In this document: positions 6,046 through 61,891 of the stretch, in pieces
Numbering within the stretch: the stretch's first letter is position 1
Layout of the letters: each line of letters opens with the position of its first letter
Source of the DNA: a virus
Lineage: Duplodnaviria > Heunggongvirae > Uroviricota > Caudoviricetes
DNA: 64,000 nt
Strand: one strand, 5' to 3'
IMG/VR virus record: IMGVR_UViG_3300002498_000057
The notes under the pieces: model-generated
Seen by the model: the letters and a program-made list of their open reading frames with translations, nothing else
What the model was told of the DNA's origin: nothing
Databases searched by the model: none
Translations under genes and position numbers: made by a program

Positions 6046-6660
6046 ATGGCAAAGAAAAAAAATGATTTAAAATAGATAAAGCAAGTAATATTATAGCAAT
6101 AGTAGTAGAGTACTTAGTAGCAAAAAGTATAGTAGTAGAAAGATAAATAGAATAATCCAGATAAAGGGTGCTTACTATTATAGCTATAGATTAAACATTG
6201 GGATAAATTATTAAAGGTATTTGTTCCAACTAAAGAAGATATATATAATGATAATACAGATGATTTTGGATATTCATAGACTCCACATATTACAATATTA
6301 TATGGATTCTTAGATAGATAGAATATTGATAAATAGAAATTACAATAGTATTTAATACCAACTGATAATATTAAACCTAAAATCACTGGTATGTCTTTAT
6401 TTGAATTATAGAAATATGATGTATTAAAATTTGATGTAGAATGTAAATAGTTAGTCAATATGAATAAGCAAATAGCTAAAAATTTCAAATATTCTAATGA
6501 CTATAGTAAATATATACCCCATATTACAATAGCATATTTATTACCTGGAACTGGAAAGAAATATGTTAAAAATATTAAATTATTTTATCCAAAAGTAAAA
6601 TAGTATATTTATAATTATAAAAATGTTGATACATAGTTAATTCCATTAAAACTAAAATAA
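6046..6660 (+). CDS. 2H phosphoesterase, LigT-like (2',3'-cyclic phosphodiesterase / 2'-5' RNA ligase family) with acidic N-terminal tail
   Basis: Two H-x-T-x motifs (TPHITILYG and IPHITIAYL) in one frame; N-terminal run of TAG (Glu) codons; TAA stop. Confidence 0.65.
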
Positions 6661-6936
6661 TTGTGATAACTTTAAATACAGTGTATATAATTAAATATAA
6701 AAATGACTAAAAAAGAGTATCAATTAAAAAAAAATGAAGCTATTATATTAAAAGATAAAACTATGTAGGTATTAATATCTTAGATGTACATTGATACCCT
6801 CGAATAGCGTATTAAATAGCTTGAGAATGATGGGTTAAGATTAGTTCATTTGCATTATCCAACAGTATTAGAGGGAACAATAACCACATCAGCATCAATT
6901 TGAGAATATGACGAATAAAATAAATTAATATAAATA

Positions 6937-7008
6937 GCCAATCTAGCTCAACGGTAGAGCACAAGTTTTGTAAACTTGAGGTTATGGGTTCGAAACCCTT
7001 GATTGGCT
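6937..7008 (+). tRNA. tRNA-Thr(UGU)
   Basis: Cloverleaf with acceptor GCCAATC/GATTGGC, anticodon stem CAAGT/ACTTG, loop TTTGTAA, T-loop TTCGAAA; CCA encoded. Confidence 0.85.
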
Positions 7009-7071
7009 CCAATAAATCTAATCTGAATGATAGATTTAAATAAAATACTAATCTAAGGAGAGTTAAAGATT

Positions 7072-8979
7072 ATGAGTAAACATGAAATAATTCTAGGAAT
7101 TGATTTAGGAACAACTAATTCATGCGTAGCAATTATGGAAGCCGGTCAAACAACAGTAATTCAAAATTCGTAGGGCGGAAGAACAACACCATCAGTAGTT
7201 GGATTTACAAAATAGGGTAATAGACTTATAGGACAATTAGCTAGACGTCAGGCAATTACTAATCCAAAAAACACAGTGTATAGTATAAAAAGATTTATGG
7301 GACGATCATATAGTGAAGTTCCAGAAGAAATTAAAACTGTTCCATATAAAATTAAAAAAGATAAAAACAATCAAGTAGTTGTCCATATAGACACTGAAAA
7401 CAAAGATTATTCTCCACAAGAAATATCTGCAGCAATTCTTACTAAAATGAAATAGACCGCAGAATCTTATACTGGTCAAACAATTACTAAAGCTGTAATT
7501 ACAGTCCCTGCATATTTTGGTGATGATCAACGAACTGCAACTAAGGATGCTGGACGAATTGCAGGTTTAGAAGTATTAAGAATAATTAATGAACCAACTG
7601 CAGCAGCATTAGCATATGGTATATAGAATAAGAAAGATGCAAAGGTGGCAGTGTTTGATCTTGGCGGAGGAACCCATGATATTTCTATTCTTGACATATC
7701 TAATGGAGTTGTATAGGTACTAAGTACTAATGGTGATACCCACTTGGGTGGAGACGATTTCGATCAAATAATTACAACTTGGATTATAGATGAATTTAAA
7801 AAATCAGATGGTATTGATATTAGTAAAGATGCTATGGCATTACAAAGAATTAAAGAAGCTTCTGAACGAGCAAAAATATAGTTATCTGGTACTGTATCTA
7901 CAACTATAAATTTACCATTTATTACTGCTGATAGTACTGGTCCAAGACATTTATCATTAGACTTAACTAGAGCTAATTTTGATAAAATGACAGCTCATTT
8001 AATTGATAGAGCAGTTAAACCTTGTGAATTAGCAATTAAAGATTCAAAATTATCTGTTAGTAATATAGATGAAGTAATACTAGTGGGTGGTTCAACTAGA
8101 ATACCAGCCGTTCAATAGGCAATTAAAAAGTTTTTTAAGACCTAGGAGTTAAATCAATCTATAAATCCTGATGAAGCTGTTGCAATTGGAGCTGCAATTC
8201 AAGGAGCAATATTAGTTGGTAATGATAATGTCAAAGATATATTACTCTTAGATATAACTCCCCTGAGCTTAGGAATTTAGACTGTGGGTGGTGTAATGAC
8301 TAACCTAATTGAAAGAAATACAACTATACCAACAAAAAAATCACAAATCTTCTCAACGGCTGCTGACAATCAACAAGCTGTAACAATAAATGTATTACAG
8401 GGATAGAGACCACTAGCTAATGATAATAAATCTTTAGGACGGTTTGACCTAGTTGATATTCCACCCGCTCCAAGAGGTATGCCTCAAATTGAAGTTATTT
8501 TTGATATAGACTCCAGCGGAATAATACATGTATAGGCTATTGATAAAGGTACAGGTAAAAAGCAATCTATTAAAATAGAAAGGTCTGGACAATTATCATA
8601 GAGTGATATTGATAAAATGATTAAAGATTCATAGCTATATGCAGAAGAAGATAATAAAAAGAAAGCTTTAATATAGGCAAAAAATATTTTAGATAGTATG
8701 GTATTTCAATCAGAAAAAACAATATAGGATAATAAGGATAAAATACCAGTAGAATTATATTAGAAGATAAATAATAAAATTAAATAGGTTAAAGAAAAAC
8801 AATCAACAATACAAACAGTATAGCAATATAAATAGATAACAGAAAGTCTATCTAAAGTATTACAATAGATTGGACAATATATATATTCACAGCAACAATA
8901 GCAACAAAGCAATTAGAATACTTAGCAAAAACAAAATAATACTGGTCCTATTGATGCTGAGTATGAAGTAGTAGATTAA
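7072..8979 (+). CDS. dnaK: molecular chaperone DnaK (Hsp70), recoded
   Basis: [57 protein letters not shown] and LSLGI.TVGGVMT. 19 in-frame TAG, 8 of 13 compared against E. coli DnaK at conserved Glu (FEV, KIELS, IET, QGER). Confidence 0.9.
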
Positions 8980-9051
8980 CTAATGTAAGTGTTAAAATAT
9001 TTTATAGGAGGTGGTGCATAACTGTATCATTATTAATACTTATAGAAATAT

Positions 9052-9078
9052 GGCATCGAAAGGTGCCTATTTTTATTT
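9052..9078 (+). terminator. rho-independent terminator after dnaK
   Basis: GGCATC-GAAA-GGTGCC hairpin followed by TATTTTTATTT. Confidence 0.5.
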
Positions 9079-9116
9079 AAAATAATTGTGATAATGTTAG
9101 ACTAAATTGATATAAT
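9079..9116 (+). promoter_or_regulatory. conserved phage promoter motif copy 1 (AAAATAATTGTGATAA-N15-TATAAT)
   Basis: TTGTGA 9086-9091, 19-nt spacer, TATAAT 9111-9116 with TGn extended -10; SD GGGAG and ATG follow. Confidence 0.6.
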
Positions 9117-60153: not shown

Positions 60154-60211
60154 TACTAAAGTGGTCTGTAGGTAAATTATAACTATATCTATAGACCACC
60201 TATTTTTGCTC

Positions 60212-60249
60212 AAAATAATTGTGATAAATACCAAAAATCTAATTATAAT
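60212..60249 (+). promoter_or_regulatory. conserved promoter motif copy 14
   Basis: TTGTGA 60219-60224, 19-nt spacer, TATAAT 60244-60249. Confidence 0.6.
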
Positions 60250-60280
60250 ATAATTATATTTAAGAAAAAGAGGTTATACC

Positions 60281-60763
60281 ATGAAACAATTAAAAGATCA
60301 ATTTGTTACCGTAACATATGCAAGGGCTGTAAGTCAACCATCTGGTAGTGTTAGGGGTAAAAAACAAACATATAAAGCATTGGTGTTAAATGTAACTGAT
60401 ACTACAATATCGGTACGTATGATAAAGTCTCAATGTTATGTTGATATATTATATAAAAAATGCGGTTATAGTGTAACCCACCCAGATTTTATTAAATTTA
60501 TGAAAGATTGTCGTAATGCATTAAATATTGGATATACTATACAAGAAACTGGTGTAGTATCGATTCCATTAAATATTACCTTTTCAATAGAATCGTTTAA
60601 AAAAATGAATCCTATTATCATTAATAAAAATACATTATCTAAAGATGAATTATTAATACTTGAAGATCAAATTCAAATAATGCACAAAGATTTAGCACAT
60701 TCTTGTTGGTTTGATAATGATAACGATTGTATGAGATGGTACAGAAAATATATTCCAAAATAA
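60281..60763 (+). CDS. hypothetical protein
   Basis: SD AGAGGT; stop lies inside the next promoter motif. Confidence 0.45.
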   Translation: MKQLKDQFVTVTYARAVSQPSGSVRGKKQTYKALVLNVTDTTISVRMIKSQCYVDILYKKCGYSVTHPDFIKFMKDCRNALNIGYTIQETGVVSIPLNITFSIESFKKMNPIIINKNTLSKDELLILEDQIQIMHKDLAHSCWFDNDNDCMRWYRKYIPK

Positions 60764-60794
60764 TTGTGATAGTTTGAAGTCGTATAAATATAAT
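60757..60794 (+). promoter_or_regulatory. conserved promoter motif copy 15
   Basis: TTGTGA 60764-60769, 19-nt spacer, TATAAT 60789-60794. Confidence 0.6.
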
Positions 60795-60820
60795 TAATTT
60801 ATATTTAAAAGGAGACGACA

Positions 60821-61891
60821 ATGAAATTATCAGAATCTAATATAACTATACTTAATGATCATATTACTAATGGTAATATAAGAGTTGCAAAGCATCCAGA
60901 TTATGAATTATACTTATATAAATATACTCAGCAATGTGTATTTAATGGTATATGGGATGATGTTACATTAATGTGTAGAGGTTTAGTATTAGATAATGAA
61001 TATAATATCATTGCAAATTGTATTCCAAAGTTTTTTAATTATGAAGAATTAAATCAAGTAAGAGTTCCAAATATTAATTTAAATCAGGCTTTTACAATTA
61101 CACGAAAAGACGATGGAAGTTTAATTCAAATATTCATGTATAAAAATAATTTAATAACAACTTCATCTGGTGGATTTTGTAATGACTATACAAAAAAAGC
61201 TGAAGAATTACTTAGTACAAAATACAAACATATTATTCCAATAATTACAGATTCACCAGATTTAAATTTTATATTTGAAATGATTTCTCCATTAACTAAA
61301 GTGGTTATAAACTATGAGGATACTGAAGAATTAAGACTAATAACTATTAGAGATATGGATGGACTTGAATTTTCTAGGTTTATTGAATGGTGTAAAACTC
61401 AAGGATTTGATTATGTCCAGGAAGAGAAATTTTACTCTATAGTCCAGTTATTAGTAGAAAAAGTATCAGAGTTTAAAAATATCGAAGGTTATGTTATAAA
61501 GTTTGAAGATGGGCAACGTGTAAAGTTTAAGTATGATGAATATTTTACATTACATAAAACAATAGCTCATGTAAGTAAAAAGTTTGTATGGGAAGCATTA
61601 GCTAATAATATAGATTTAAACTTAGAAAATATTCCAGATGAAACATTTAAACAGATTAAACAATGGAAAAAAGAACTTGAAGATGAATTTAATTTTATTG
61701 AAGATGCAGTTGTAAAGGCTAATAGGCGGGTGTCTATTGCATCAATAAATGGAGTCTTCAATAGAAAGCAACAAGCAGAATTTATCTTAAAAAATTATAA
61801 AGAATACTCTCAAATGCTATTTGCTATGTTAGACGATAGAGATATTGAGCCTATGATATGGAAAAAAATTAAACCAAGTAATGAGGACTAA
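60821..61891 (+). CDS. Rnl1-family ATP-dependent RNA ligase (T4 RnlA-like)
   Basis: Motif I ITRKDDGSLIQIF (compare T4 KEDGSL), motif IV EGYVIKFEDG, motif V RVKFKYDEY; 356 aa; SD AAGGAGA. Confidence 0.7.
   Translation: MKLSESNITILNDHITNGNIRVAKHPDYELYLYKYTQQCVFNGIWDDVTLMCRGLVLDNEYNIIANCIPKFFNYEELNQVRVPNINLNQAFTITRKDDGSLIQIFMYKNNLITTSSGGFCNDYTKKAEELLSTKYKHIIPIITDSPDLNFIFEMISPLTKVVINYEDTEELRLITIRDMDGLEFSRFIEWCKTQGFDYVQEEKFYSIVQLLVEKVSEFKNIEGYVIKFEDGQRVKFKYDEYFTLHKTIAHVSKKFVWEALANNIDLNLENIPDETFKQIKQWKKELEDEFNFIEDAVVKANRRVSIASINGVFNRKQQAEFILKNYKEYSQMLFAMLDDRDIEPMIWKKIKPSNED

What the first reader, a model, noticed from the sequence alone, without database searches (positions are those of the whole stretch)
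6046..61891. Exceptionally dense RNA-repair, tRNA-maturation and translation-rescue toolkit
Within 56 kb the phage encodes RtcB (3'-phosphate ligase), an Rnl1-like and an Rnl2-like ATP-dependent RNA ligase, a LigT-like 2H phosphoesterase, an RNase Z-like MBL enzyme and a Pol-beta NTase. It also encodes a calcineurin-type metallophosphoesterase, a Nudix enzyme, Sir2, Ro60 plus Y RNAs, a tmRNA, EF-Ts and over 30 tRNAs. Many of the tRNAs lack an encoded CCA and so would need 3' processing. This combination is what one expects of a phage confronting tRNA- or anticodon-cleaving host defences such as PrrC/RloC-type nucleases, retrons, PARIS or CBASS-associated nucleases. Alternatively, it maintains a private decoding apparatus for its altered code.
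Basis: partly seen in the sequence, partly recalled or inferred. Interest (0 to 1): 0.75.

Follow-up and report, generated by a model that had tools for sequence, protein, structure and literature searches.

The report
Jumbo-phage RNA-repair, decoding and anti-signal genes
A giant phage carries three RNA ligases, a Ro60 protein with six Y-like RNAs, a near-complete tRNA set and signal-degrading enzymes, a gene mix already known from jumbo phages, but it also appears to read the stop codon TAG as glutamate, which has not been reported for a phage.

Summary
Most listed genes are real: RtcB, T4-type Rnl1, Rnl2, an RlaP Pol-beta nucleotidyltransferase, Nudix, Sir2, Ro60, tmRNA and EF-Ts.

Three labels change. 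The "RNase Z-like" MBL is an Apyc1 anti-Pycsar phosphodiesterase. The "LigT-like" 2H enzyme leans towards Acb1. The metallophosphoesterase belongs to a phage family annotated as exonuclease, yet it sits in a conserved cluster with RlaP and Rnl2.

Two statements fail. Twenty-two of 28 tRNAs encode CCA. The count is 28-29 tRNAs, not more than 30.

Six tandem Y-like RNAs precede Ro60 and show strong covariation.

The span is three co-resident gene sets rather than one system: decoding, RNA break repair, and nucleotide-signal/NAD enzymes. All are described for jumbo phages, so this is a new member of a known kind.

The surprise lies elsewhere. In-frame TAG aligns with invariant Glu and TGA with Trp, and TAA ends all 36 genes examined. 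The Glu and Trp tRNA slots hold CUA and UCA anticodons. A TAG-free GluRS lies 1.1 kb beyond the window. The ligases, Ro60, Sir2 and Apyc1 avoid TAG, so unmodified host machinery could translate them.

The parts
6046..6660 (+). 2H phosphoesterase with two HxT motifs. Acb1-like or LigT-like; subfamily unresolved. TAG-rich: 21 TAG.
   Evidence: PF13563 31 bits and PF23474 Acb1 25-26 bits. phrog_755. The AF2 model of homologue P0005 is closest to Acb1 7T27 at E 2e-5, with LigT only at E 9e-3. The gene order RNR-2H-DnaK-DnaJ is kept in relative L030.
11948..12457 (+). Nudix hydrolase. Its Nudix box is canonical only if TAG=Glu. Nearest families are ADP-compound hydrolases. Absent at the syntenic site of relative L030.
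   Evidence: PF00293 rises from 30 to 42 bits when TAG is read as E. NudE/YffH are the best NCBIfam hits, below their cutoffs. L030 synteny.
14060..14134 (+). tRNA with anticodon UCA (reads TGA) and discriminator G73.
   Evidence: ARAGORN.
17326..17400 (+). tRNA with anticodon CUA (reads TAG). It has U11-A24, U13.G22 and a 4-nt variable loop, as in tRNA-Glu.
   Evidence: ARAGORN. Sequence comparison.
17326..36399 (+). tRNA island holding 26 of the 28 tRNAs; tRNA-Thr (6937-7011) and tRNA(UCA) (14060-14134) lie outside it. One tRNA per amino acid except Glu and Trp. Also one tRNA-like gene with a 58-nt insertion (25530-25656) and a truncated tRNA-Trp(CCA)-like pseudogene (25929-25996).
18128..18484 (+). 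tmRNA. The tag reading frame ends ...NDNLLQAA followed by TAA.
   Evidence: RF00023 94.7 bits, full-length match. Sequence read.
19761..20410 (+). Array of six tandem Y-RNA-like genes. Three are long (two of these with complete tRNA-like T and D arms) and three are short.
   Evidence: YrlA hits at E 8e-6 and 1e-4, below the gathering score. Repeat families. Common fold. 96.7% of cells paired, 10 of 15 pairs compensatory, 0 of 500 shuffles as good, slid controls about 40%.
20963..22330 (+). Ro60 (TROVE plus vWA). No in-frame TAG or TGA.
   Evidence: PF05731 68.6 bits. phrog_850 146 bits. Codon counts.
36426..37040 (+). Short EF-Ts of 204 aa, with 10 TAG.
   Evidence: PF00889 96 bits. TIGR00116 131 bits, above its cutoff of 104.
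40384..41691 (+). Calcineurin-type metallophosphoesterase with 33 TAG. Either a DNA exonuclease or an RNA 3'-end healing enzyme.
   Evidence: No Pfam hit. phrog_284 'exonuclease' 174 bits. Herelleviridae homologues are annotated as exonuclease or metallophosphoesterase. The MPE-RlaP-Rnl2 cluster is kept in L034 and L038.
42856..43881 (+). RlaP Pol-beta nucleotidyltransferase. No TAG.
   Evidence: PF10127 65 bits. phrog_388 149 bits. Exact match P0037 on a 256,585-bp contig.
44085..45134 (+). Rnl2-type RNA ligase. No TAG. One in-frame TGA at 44178, read as Trp36.
   Evidence: PF09414 67 bits plus T4_Rnl2_C. phrog_548 184 bits. Codon counts.
46022..46819 (+). CobB-type sirtuin. An alternative start lies at 46091. 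No TAG.
   Evidence: PF02146 137 bits. NF001753 203 bits. No PADLOC hit.
49795..51018 (+). RtcB 3'-phosphate/5'-hydroxyl RNA ligase. No TAG.
   Evidence: PF01139 200 bits. 52-54% identity to phage RtcB genes.
55351..56181 (+). Apyc1-family MBL phosphodiesterase (anti-Pycsar). One TAG.
   Evidence: PF23023 106 bits against a cutoff of 50. Apyc1 structures 7U2S, 7U2R and 7T28 at E 4e-29 to 4e-25.
60821..61891 (+). T4 Rnl1-type RNA ligase. No TAG.
   Evidence: PF09511 72.5 bits. phrog_562 195 bits over 14-354 of 357 aa.

Best explanation
The 56-kb span lies in a jumbo phage of at least 257 kb. It holds three co-resident gene sets, not one system.

(1) Decoding set. This comprises 28-29 tRNAs with one isoacceptor per amino acid. 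The Glu and Trp slots are filled by tRNA(CUA) and tRNA(UCA). It also includes a tmRNA whose tag ends in TAA, EF-Ts and, 1.1 kb past the window, a GluRS. This set installs and services the phage's own code, in which TAG=Glu, TGA=Trp and TAA is the only stop seen.

(2) RNA break-repair set.
- RtcB joins 2',3'-cyclic-phosphate or 3'-phosphate ends to 5'-OH ends directly.
- RlaP restores one or two lost 3' nucleotides, and Rnl2 seals the nick.
- The conserved neighbouring metallophosphoesterase may remove the 3' phosphate.
- A T4-type Rnl1 seals anticodon-loop breaks.
- Ro60 with six Y-like RNAs handles misfolded or damaged RNA.
These genes contain almost no TAG, so unmodified host ribosomes could translate them at the start of infection.

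(3) Small-molecule counter-defence set. Apyc1 and probably the Acb1-like 2H enzyme hydrolyse cyclic-nucleotide alarm signals. The Nudix enzyme and the CobB-type Sir2 act in NAD/ADP-ribose chemistry.

Shown here: family memberships, motifs, codon partition, Y-RNA covariation and synteny. Inferred: substrates, timing, and that the damage being repaired is inflicted by the host.
For: Family assignments.

Code:
- In DnaK, TAG aligns with the Glu residues of the conserved NAEG, FEV, KIELS, GIET and QGER motifs. Nine of 17 TAG positions align with E, 2 with D and 1 with Q.
- In the ribonucleotide reductase (RNR), TAG sits at the catalytic NPCxE Glu, and TGA sits at aromatic or hydrophobic positions.
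- Pfam scores rise when TAG is read as E: Nudix goes from 30 to 42 bits, and DnaB_C goes from no hit to 59 bits.
- TAG-rich genes are depleted in GAA/GAG. RNR has 74 TAG against 13 GAR, while TAG plus GAR stays at 8-11% and Gln codons stay constant.
- Relatives carry TAG at YY[E]ILGV and AY[E]VLSD in DnaJ.
- The tRNA set lacks Glu(UUC) and Trp(CCA) but has CUA and UCA anticodons.
- The GluRS passes the TIGR00464 cutoff (348 against 290 bits) and has no TAG.

Partition: Ro60, RlaP, Rnl2, Sir2, Band7, RtcB and Rnl1 together have 163 GAR and 0 TAG. The 2H, Nudix, EF-Ts and MPE genes have 21/3, 11/5, 10/12 and 33/6 TAG/GAR.

Y RNAs.

Synteny: MPE-RlaP-Rnl2 is kept in L034 and L038. 2H stays with RNR-DnaK-DnaJ in L030.

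Literature: jumbo phages combine RtcB/Rnl1/Rnl2, RlaP, TROVE, 2H, Nudix, SIR2 and tRNAs. RlaP adds 1-2 NMP to damaged RNA 3' ends.
Against: - Nothing was tested biochemically.
- No 5'-kinase/3'-phosphatase (Pnkp) was found in the window, so the ATP-dependent ligases lack a visible healing partner. Only 64 kb of the 257 kb could be read, plus about 10 kb beyond one end.
- The 2H and MPE assignments remain ambiguous.
- The toolkit genes are scattered among about 100 genes, and only RlaP-Rnl2(-MPE) are neighbours.
- The early/late classes are inferred from codon use alone.
- Rnl2 carries one in-frame TGA, which does not fit a strictly standard-code early class.
- The host, and therefore its nucleases, is unknown.
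Confidence: 0.65

Rival explanations
1. All listed proteins form one integrated heal-and-seal toolkit aimed at anticodon nucleases of the PrrC, RloC, PARIS or retron type. In it, 2H, MPE and MBL serve as end-processing enzymes, and the tRNAs replace cleaved host tRNAs.
For: Three intact RNA ligases plus RlaP. Calcineurin-like and 2H enzymes are proposed healing enzymes in some jumbo phages. MPE-RlaP-Rnl2 is conserved as a cluster. A cREC domain gene lies about 5 kb beyond Rnl1.
Against: The MBL is Apyc1, not RNase Z. The 2H protein is closer to Acb1 and is linked to RNR-DnaK-DnaJ rather than to ligases. Most tRNAs encode CCA. No Pnkp or RtcA is present. The tRNA set is a full one-per-amino-acid set rather than a few replacement species.
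Confidence: 0.12
2. The RNA enzymes serve the phage's own RNA maturation rather than repair. The ligases, RlaP and Ro60/Y RNAs would process and quality-control the phage's unusual tRNAs, for example the tRNA with a 58-nt insertion and other tRNA-like transcripts needed for the altered code.
For: An odd tRNA with a large insertion at 25530-25656, a truncated tRNA and tRNA-like Y RNAs lie in the same island. RtcB is the tRNA-splicing ligase in archaea and eukaryotes (established knowledge). Intron-bearing tRNAs are reported to be common in recoded jumbo phages.
Against: No splicing endonuclease was found. 27 of the 28 ARAGORN tRNAs match the Rfam tRNA model without long insertions. The ligases lie 15-30 kb from the tRNA island. 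RtcB, Rnl1 and Rnl2 also occur in many phages that use the standard code.
Confidence: 0.1
3. Several members have roles unrelated to RNA. Rnl1 would act as a tail-fibre attachment factor, as T4 gp63 does. The MPE would be an SbcD/Mre11-like DNA nuclease. Sir2 and Nudix would be metabolic genes. The apparent toolkit would then be an accident of a large accessory genome.
For: phrog_562 is annotated 'RNA ligase and tail fiber protein attachment catalyst', and phrog_284 is annotated 'exonuclease'. MPE homologues are annotated as DNA repair exonucleases. Nudix is absent at the syntenic site of a relative.
Against: The ligase nucleotidyl-transfer motifs are intact by eye: KxDGS, KIHGSN and EGxVxK. 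RlaP-Rnl2 adjacency recurs in three related phages. RtcB has no known non-RNA role.
Confidence: 0.1

Closest known systems
Jumbo-phage RNA-repair and counter-conflict arsenals (Iyer, Anantharaman, Krishnan, Burroughs and Aravind 2021, PMC7824862), e.g. Burkholderia phages BcepSaruman and BcepSauron
   Same: [quoted passage not shown] RlaP mirrors the ligases. These phages also carry TROVE/Ro proteins, 2H, Nudix and SIR2 enzymes and about 18-22 tRNAs. cREC domains are linked to ligases.
   Different: Here there are no Pnkp or HAD phosphatases in view. There are six tandem Y-like RNAs, a tmRNA, EF-Ts and a GluRS. The genes split into TAG-free and TAG-rich classes in a phage that reads TAG as Glu.
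T4 Pnkp-Rnl1 pathway against the PrrC anticodon nuclease
   Same: A full-length T4-type Rnl1 and an Rnl2.
   Different: No Pnkp kinase-phosphatase was found in the window. RtcB offers a route that needs no healing step. The host nuclease is unknown.
Bacterial rsr-yrlA-rtcBA RNA repair operon (Salmonella; PMC4201824, PMC7790460)
   Same: Ro60 is encoded next to tRNA-like YrlA-type RNAs, and RtcB is in the same genome.
   Different: RtcB lies 28 kb away. There is no RtcA or RtcR. There are six Y-like units rather than one or two. The YrlA hits are below Rfam's gathering score.
Apyc1 and Acb1 phage anti-signal nucleases (Pfam PF23023 and PF23474; PDB 7U2S and 7T27)
   Same: The MBL passes the Apyc1 gathering score, and solved Apyc1 structures are its best sequence matches. 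The 2H family's model is closest to Acb1.
   Different: The 2H protein falls 1-2 bits short of the Acb1 gathering score and also matches the general 2'-5' ligase family. Activity is untested.
Stop-codon-recoded phages (Borges et al. preprint 10.1101/2021.08.26.457843; Peters et al. PMC9523058)
   Same: Suppressor tRNAs are present. Recoded codons are concentrated in a subset of genes, and other genes avoid them.
   Different: Those studies report only TAG->Gln and TGA->Trp, one per phage. Here TAG aligns with Glu, TGA with Trp in the same genome, and a phage GluRS is present.

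Membership tests
RtcB RNA ligase (PF01139) | Full-length match above the gathering score, with the metal- and GMP-binding motifs (Cys in DxxCG, GGGNHF, HxGSR, PHGAGR) | tested here: met
   200.5 bits, covering 13-425 of 426 model positions. The motifs VDISCG, GGGNHF, HTGSR and PHGAGR are read in the translation. Their meaning is recalled from memory.
T4 Rnl1 family (PF09511 / phrog_562) | Adenylyltransferase motifs I (KxDGS), IV and V, plus the C-terminal domain specific to Rnl1 | tested here: met
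   72.5 bits. phrog_562 at 195 bits spans residues 14-354 of 357. KDDGSL, EGYVIK and KFKYDEY are present in the sequence.
Rnl2 family (PF09414 + PF18043) | Motif I KxHGxN, motifs IV and V, and the Rnl2 C-terminal domain | tested here: met
   66.6 bits. T4_Rnl2_C scores 26.2 bits, just under its gathering score of 27. phrog_548 at 184 bits is full length. KIHGSN, REGHVIK and FKDKNDKF are present.
RlaP (PF10127) | Pol-beta NTase core (GS...DxD) and a gene neighbourhood that includes an RNA ligase | tested here: met
   65.4 bits. The sequence has GSYLYGLTTPTSDID. Rnl2 starts 204 nt downstream. The same pair is found in L034, L035 and L038.
RNase Z / ELAC (tRNA 3' processing) | Best match to RNase Z models or structures over the whole MBL domain, including the tRNA-binding exosite | tested here: not met
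   RNase Z and ELAC structures match only residues 25-78 at E 1.6e-5 to 3e-3, while Apyc1 matches at E 4e-29. No RNase Z family reached E <= 0.01 in the Pfam scan.
Apyc1 anti-Pycsar phosphodiesterase (PF23023) | Score above the gathering cutoff, the HxHxDH metal site, and hydrolysis of cyclic mononucleotides | tested here: met
   106.2 bits against a cutoff of 50, covering model positions 5-241 of 250. HYHSDH is present. Enzymatic activity cannot be tested with these tools.
LigT / 2'-5' RNA ligase-type RNA 2',3'-cyclic phosphodiesterase | Two HxT/S motifs and closest similarity to LigT-type enzymes | tested here: inconclusive
   Two HIT motifs are present. PF13563 scores 31 bits, above its cutoff of 27. 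TIGR02258 scores only 20.7 bits against a cutoff of 65.7. E. coli LigT ranks 20th in the fold search at E 9e-3.
Acb1 anti-CBASS nuclease (PF23474) | Score above the gathering cutoff, a fold closest to Acb1, and cleavage of cyclic oligonucleotides | tested here: inconclusive
   25-26 bits against a cutoff of 27. Most homologues carry a precomputed PF23474 hit. Acb1 7T27 is the top Foldseek hit at E 2e-5 and 20% identity, but TM is only 0.42-0.54.
Ro60-Y RNA ribonucleoprotein | A TROVE plus vWA protein, with adjacent small RNAs that have a conserved bulged terminal helix, at least one carrying a tRNA-like domain | tested here: met
   TROVE scores 68.6 bits. Six units lie 540-1200 nt upstream. 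The stems covary. Two units hit YrlA through the T and D arms at E 8e-6 and 1e-4, below the gathering score of 69 bits. Binding was not tested.
T4-type heal-and-seal pathway (Pnkp + Rnl1) | A 5'-kinase/3'-phosphatase encoded together with the ligase | tested here: not met
   No Pnkp, P-loop kinase or HAD motif was found in any ORF of the window apart from the DnaB-like helicase. About 183 kb of the genome could not be read.
rsr-yrlA-rtcBA operon | Ro60, Y RNA, RtcB and RtcA in one operon under RtcR control | tested here: not met
   Ro60 and the Y RNAs are adjacent, but RtcB lies 28 kb away. No RtcA or RtcR family hit was found.
Genetic code 15 (TAG=Gln) phages | In-frame TAG aligns with Gln in conserved proteins | tested here: not met
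   In DnaK, TAG aligns with Glu at 9 positions, Asp at 2 and Gln at 1 of 17. RNR, DnaJ and Nudix agree. Codon compensation is with GAA/GAG, not CAA/CAG.

The most novel reading that the evidence does not exclude
This phage and its metagenomic relatives use a code not described for any phage or bacterium. TAG is read as glutamate and TGA as tryptophan, and TAA is the only stop. A tRNA-Glu-like CUA suppressor, a tRNA(UCA) and a phage GluRS with a divergent C-terminal anticodon-binding region install this code.

Three codon classes suggest a staged switch: TAG-free genes, TAG-rich genes, and genes rich in both TAG and TGA. The RNA-repair and anti-signal genes belong to the class that the host can translate unaided.

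In the recoded genes about 85% of Glu codons are TAG. Their translation therefore hardly needs host tRNA-Glu. This could be either a takeover device or an escape from a tRNA-directed defence.
Probability: 0.65. Interest if true: 0.85.

Novelty: new member of a known kind. Interest (0 to 1): 0.5.

Why it matters
As an RNA-repair arsenal, this is another example of what comparative genomics has already catalogued in jumbo phages, and a rich one. It is useful as a source of a compact RtcB/Rnl1/Rnl2/RlaP set and of a six-gene Y-RNA array for Ro60 biology.

The larger value is what checking it exposed.
- Public gene calls for this contig translate TAG as Gln and stop at TGA. That splits or mistranslates many proteins, including Rnl2 and the phosphoesterase.
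- If TAG=Glu holds, it breaks the published generalisation that phages only make TAG->Gln and TGA->Trp changes.
- It supplies a natural orthogonal GluRS/tRNA(CUA) pair.
- It gives a testable model in which counter-defence genes are kept in the host's code while the rest of the genome is locked behind a code switch.

Tried and rejected
- Translating TAG as Gln (code 15) was my first assumption. It gave weaker or no domain hits: Nudix 30 bits and no DnaB_C hit. I dropped it after the DnaK alignment.
- A megablast of the ligase block against 50,697 phage records found nothing. RtcB-based scans of INPHARED and IMG/VR found only relatives at 54% identity or less, without synteny.
- An exact look-up of Rnl1 with a mis-set start found nothing. 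The source contig was later found through RlaP.
- ARAGORN did not detect the tmRNA that Rfam finds.
- Sequence searches of PDB with the 2H and MPE proteins gave no usable hit.
A 41%-identical standard-code homologue was modelled instead.
- PADLOC gave no defence-system match for Sir2, MPE, Band7, RlaP, RtcB or Ro60, so a phage-borne defence reading was dropped.
- Folding energies of single Y-like units are not significantly better than shuffles (z -0.6 to -2.3). Support for them rests on covariation.
- A search for Pnkp-type kinase and HAD motifs found none.
- The rest of the 257-kb genome could not be fetched, because look-ups are limited to window proteins.

Full report
**What the window is.**
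- The window has about 27% G+C and is coded almost wholly on the + strand.
- An exact match of its RlaP protein places it on a 256,585-bp metagenomic contig, ENA ERZ27315036 k141_100919. This is therefore a jumbo phage.
- Under the standard code only 18.6 kb of the + strand lies in ORFs of at least 100 codons. With TAA as the sole stop this rises to 50 kb.
- Many long frames free of TAA carry dozens of in-frame TAG codons, and some also carry TGA.

**Check of the listed components.**
- RtcB 49795-51018: PF01139, 200 bits.
- T4-type Rnl1 60821-61891: PF09511, 72.5 bits; phrog_562, 195 bits over the full length.
- Rnl2 44085-45134: PF09414 plus the Rnl2 C-terminal domain; phrog_548, 184 bits.
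- The Pol-beta NTase 42856-43881 is RlaP, PF10127.
- Nudix 11948-12457.
- A canonical sirtuin 46022-46819, nearest to CobB deacylases and with no match to defence-type Sir2.
- Ro60 20963-22330.
- tmRNA 18128-18484: 94.7 bits. Its tag ends ...NDNLLQAA followed by TAA.
- A short EF-Ts 36426-37040 that passes NCBI's tsf cutoff.

**Items that change.**
- The "RNase Z-like" MBL at 55351-56181 is an Apyc1 anti-Pycsar phosphodiesterase. It scores 106 bits on PF23023 against a cutoff of 50. Apyc1 structures match at E 4e-29, while RNase Z matches at E 3e-3 over about 50 residues.
- The 2H protein at 6046-6660 has both HxT motifs but sits between families. It scores 31 bits on PF13563 and 25-26 bits on Acb1, whose cutoff is 27.
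  - A confident model (pLDDT 88.8) of a 41%-identical homologue is closest to Acb1. Usb1 and a poxvirus cGAMP phosphodiesterase follow. E. coli LigT appears only at E 9e-3.
  - In a 66%-identical relative the gene keeps the order RNR-2H-DnaK-DnaJ, away from any ligase.
- The metallophosphoesterase at 40384-41691 has no Pfam hit. It matches phrog_284 'exonuclease' over its full length at 174 bits. Its homologues in Herelleviridae are annotated as exonuclease or metallophosphoesterase.
  - Even so, the MPE-RlaP-Rnl2 cluster is kept in two relatives at 55-76% identity.
  - Calcineurin-type domains are known to heal RNA 3' ends in Clostridium thermocellum Pnkp and are proposed to do so in a few jumbo phages. 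Its role therefore stays open.
- "Many tRNAs lack CCA" is wrong: 22 of 28 encode CCA.
- The tRNA count is 28. Rfam adds one tRNA-like gene with a 58-nt insertion and one truncated tRNA-Trp(CCA)-like pseudogene.
- No polynucleotide kinase-phosphatase, RtcA or CCA-adding enzyme was found in the window.

**Y RNAs.**
- Upstream of Ro60, 19761-20410 holds six tandem units.
- Two of the three long units hit Rfam YrlA through tRNA-like T and D arms, at E 8e-6 and 1e-4. Both are below the gathering score.
- All six share a terminal helix with a bulged U and a second 9-bp helix.
- On an alignment of the stems, 96.7% of cells pair and 10 of 15 pairs show compensatory changes. None of 500 shuffles reaches this, and slid controls pair at about 40%.
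- Ro60 next to YrlA-type RNAs is known in bacteria and phages. Ro60 itself occurs in only 95 of 50,697 phage records.

**The code.**
- In DnaK, in-frame TAG aligns with the Glu residues of the conserved NAEG, FEV, KIELS, GIET and QGER motifs. Of 17 aligned TAG positions, 9 are Glu, 2 Asp and 1 Gln.
- In the ribonucleotide reductase, TAG sits at the catalytic NPCxE glutamate. TGA sits at aromatic or hydrophobic positions.
- The Nudix box and the DnaJ J-domain become canonical only with TAG=Glu.
- TAG-rich genes are depleted in GAA/GAG, while Gln codons stay constant. RNR has 74 TAG against 13 GAA+GAG.
- Relatives from other metagenomes carry TAG at the same Glu positions of DnaJ.
- The TGA in Rnl2 aligns, from memory, with the Trp that precedes motif I in T4 Rnl2.
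- The tRNA set has every amino acid except Glu(UUC) and Trp(CCA). It has tRNA(CUA) and tRNA(UCA) instead.
- The CUA tRNA shows the D-helix and variable-loop features of tRNA-Glu (the identity rules are recalled from memory).
- A gene 1.1 kb beyond the window's right end passes the curated cutoff for bacterial GluRS (348 against 290 bits). It is free of TAG and TGA. Its last ~80 residues lie outside the model's match. In Thermus GluRS that C-terminal region contacts the anticodon (from memory).
- All 36 genes examined end in TAA, although the ORFs were defined as TAA-to-TAA.
- The key survey of recoded phages states that only TAG->Gln and TGA->Trp are observed. I found no report of TAG->Glu in phages in the searchable library.
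- The public gene calls for this contig use TAG=Gln and TGA=stop. This splits Rnl2 at Trp36 and truncates the phosphoesterase.

**Gene classes.**
- Ro60, RlaP, Rnl2, Sir2, Band7, RtcB and Rnl1 together hold 163 GAA/GAG and no TAG. Apyc1 has one TAG.
- The 2H, Nudix, EF-Ts and MPE genes, and also DnaK and DnaJ, are TAG-rich.
- The DnaB-like helicase, RNR and a neighbouring ORF are rich in both TAG and TGA.
- I infer, but have not shown, that the TAG-free class can be translated by host machinery at the onset of infection. The other classes would need the phage's suppressor tRNAs.

**How it most likely works.** Three sets share the region.
- *Decoding:* the tRNAs, tmRNA, EF-Ts and the nearby GluRS install and service the phage code.
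- *RNA break repair:*
  - RtcB seals cyclic-phosphate/5'-OH breaks without a healing step.
  - RlaP restores one or two 3' nucleotides, and Rnl2 seals.
  - Rnl1 seals anticodon-loop nicks.
  - Ro60 with the Y RNAs handles damaged or misfolded RNA.
- *Small-molecule counter-defence:* Apyc1, probably the 2H enzyme, the ADP-compound-type Nudix and Sir2. A cREC gene and an NAD-dependent DNA ligase lie just beyond the window.

That host nucleases cause the damage is the standard inference. It was not tested here.

**Comparison and novelty.**
- Iyer et al. [quoted passage not shown] They also describe RlaP tracking the ligases, TROVE proteins, 2H, Nudix and SIR2 enzymes, cREC domains and large tRNA sets. 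The toolkit is therefore a new, unusually full member of a known kind.
- Rarer features are EF-Ts (9 phage records), the six-unit Y-RNA array, and the division of the genes by codon class.
- The potentially new result is the code itself.

**Limits.**
- Only 64 kb, plus about 10 kb beyond the right end, of the 257-kb genome could be read.
- The host is unknown.
- No activity, timing or amino-acid identity was measured.

Noticed in passing
whole window; e.g. DnaK 7072-8979, RNR 3206-5752, DnaJ 10398-11468, Nudix 11948-12457: In-frame TAG aligns with invariant Glu, not Gln, and TGA aligns with Trp or aromatic positions. TAA ends all 36 genes examined. TAG-rich genes are depleted in GAA/GAG. Relatives from other metagenomes show the same pattern. 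No report of TAG->Glu in phages was found in the literature library.
   Followed up: yes
L036:11114-12460 (window-equivalent 64238-65584, just past the right end): Phage-encoded GluRS. It scores 348 bits on TIGR00464, above the cutoff of 290, and is free of TAG and TGA. Its C-terminal ~80 residues are not covered by the model. A 50%-identical copy lies next to RlaP in relative L039.
   Followed up: partly
105-6044 vs 6046-12457 vs 42856-61891: There are three codon classes. The first is rich in TAG and TGA (DnaB-like, orf1620, RNR). The second is rich in TAG with no TGA (2H, DnaK, DnaJ, Nudix). The third is free of TAG (Ro60, RlaP, Sir2, Band7, RtcB, Rnl1). This suggests a staged code switch.
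   Followed up: partly
25929-25996: Truncated tRNA-Trp(CCA)-like pseudogene. The anticodon loop is CTCCAAA and the T arm is intact, but the 5' acceptor strand is missing. The same genome carries tRNA(UCA).
   Followed up: partly
25530-25656 and 25192-25280: A tRNA-like gene (Rfam 46 bits) with G33, anticodon GAU and a 58-nt insertion in the variable region. A tRNA(GCA) with a 14-nt variable arm, which is unusual for tRNA-Cys.
   Followed up: partly
25060-25172: A match to bacterial LSU rRNA model positions 2127-2214 (36.5 bits, E 6.6e-8) inside the tRNA island. It was seen in one Rfam search and not listed in a narrower one. Unexplained.
   Followed up: no
27803-29623; 15622-16986; 39828-40115: An IS607-like pair (serine resolvase plus TnpB) sits inside the tRNA island. 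A second TnpB-like ORF is present, and a near-identical copy of its last ~95 codons lies 23 kb away. All of them use TAG as a sense codon.
   Followed up: no
23436-24444 vs 25192-26113 and 27587-27673: Several tRNAs are duplicated: Leu-UAG, Leu-UAA, Cys, Tyr and Arg-UCU. This suggests a segmental duplication within the island.
   Followed up: no
source contig gene calls (L033, L036); proteins P0001-P0004: Public pipelines translated this clade with TAG=Gln and TGA=stop. Rnl2 is split at Trp36, the RNaseH-like gene is split in two, and the phosphoesterase loses 100 N-terminal residues.
   Followed up: yes
L036:16078-18405 (beyond the window): A cREC-domain gene, predicted in the literature to process cyclic phosphates, is followed by an NAD-dependent DNA ligase. 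Both are TAG-free and lie about 5 kb downstream of Rnl1.
   Followed up: partly
L020, L021, L022 (Rnl2 relatives): In these relatives the first ~44 codons of Rnl2 lie 0.3-1.4 kb upstream of the rest of the gene. This suggests an intron or an inserted element just after motif I.
   Followed up: no
13172-14046 and 35495-36310: Paralogous C2H2 zinc-finger proteins with weak endonuclease-like C-termini. The first copy appears frameshifted across two overlapping ORFs.
   Followed up: no
34491-35198: An ORF with an N-terminal DxDxxxDD motif, as in nucleoside hydrolases. It has no hit in Pfam, NCBIfam or PADLOC.
   Followed up: no
53903-54331 and 54912-55337: Two paralogous small membrane proteins share a near-identical C-terminus (...IPTN(A/S)ILNKFEIDVSK). 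They lie in the TAG-free block just before Apyc1.
   Followed up: no
7072-11468: A phage-encoded DnaK-DnaJ chaperone pair. It is conserved with RNR and the 2H gene in relative L030.
   Followed up: partly
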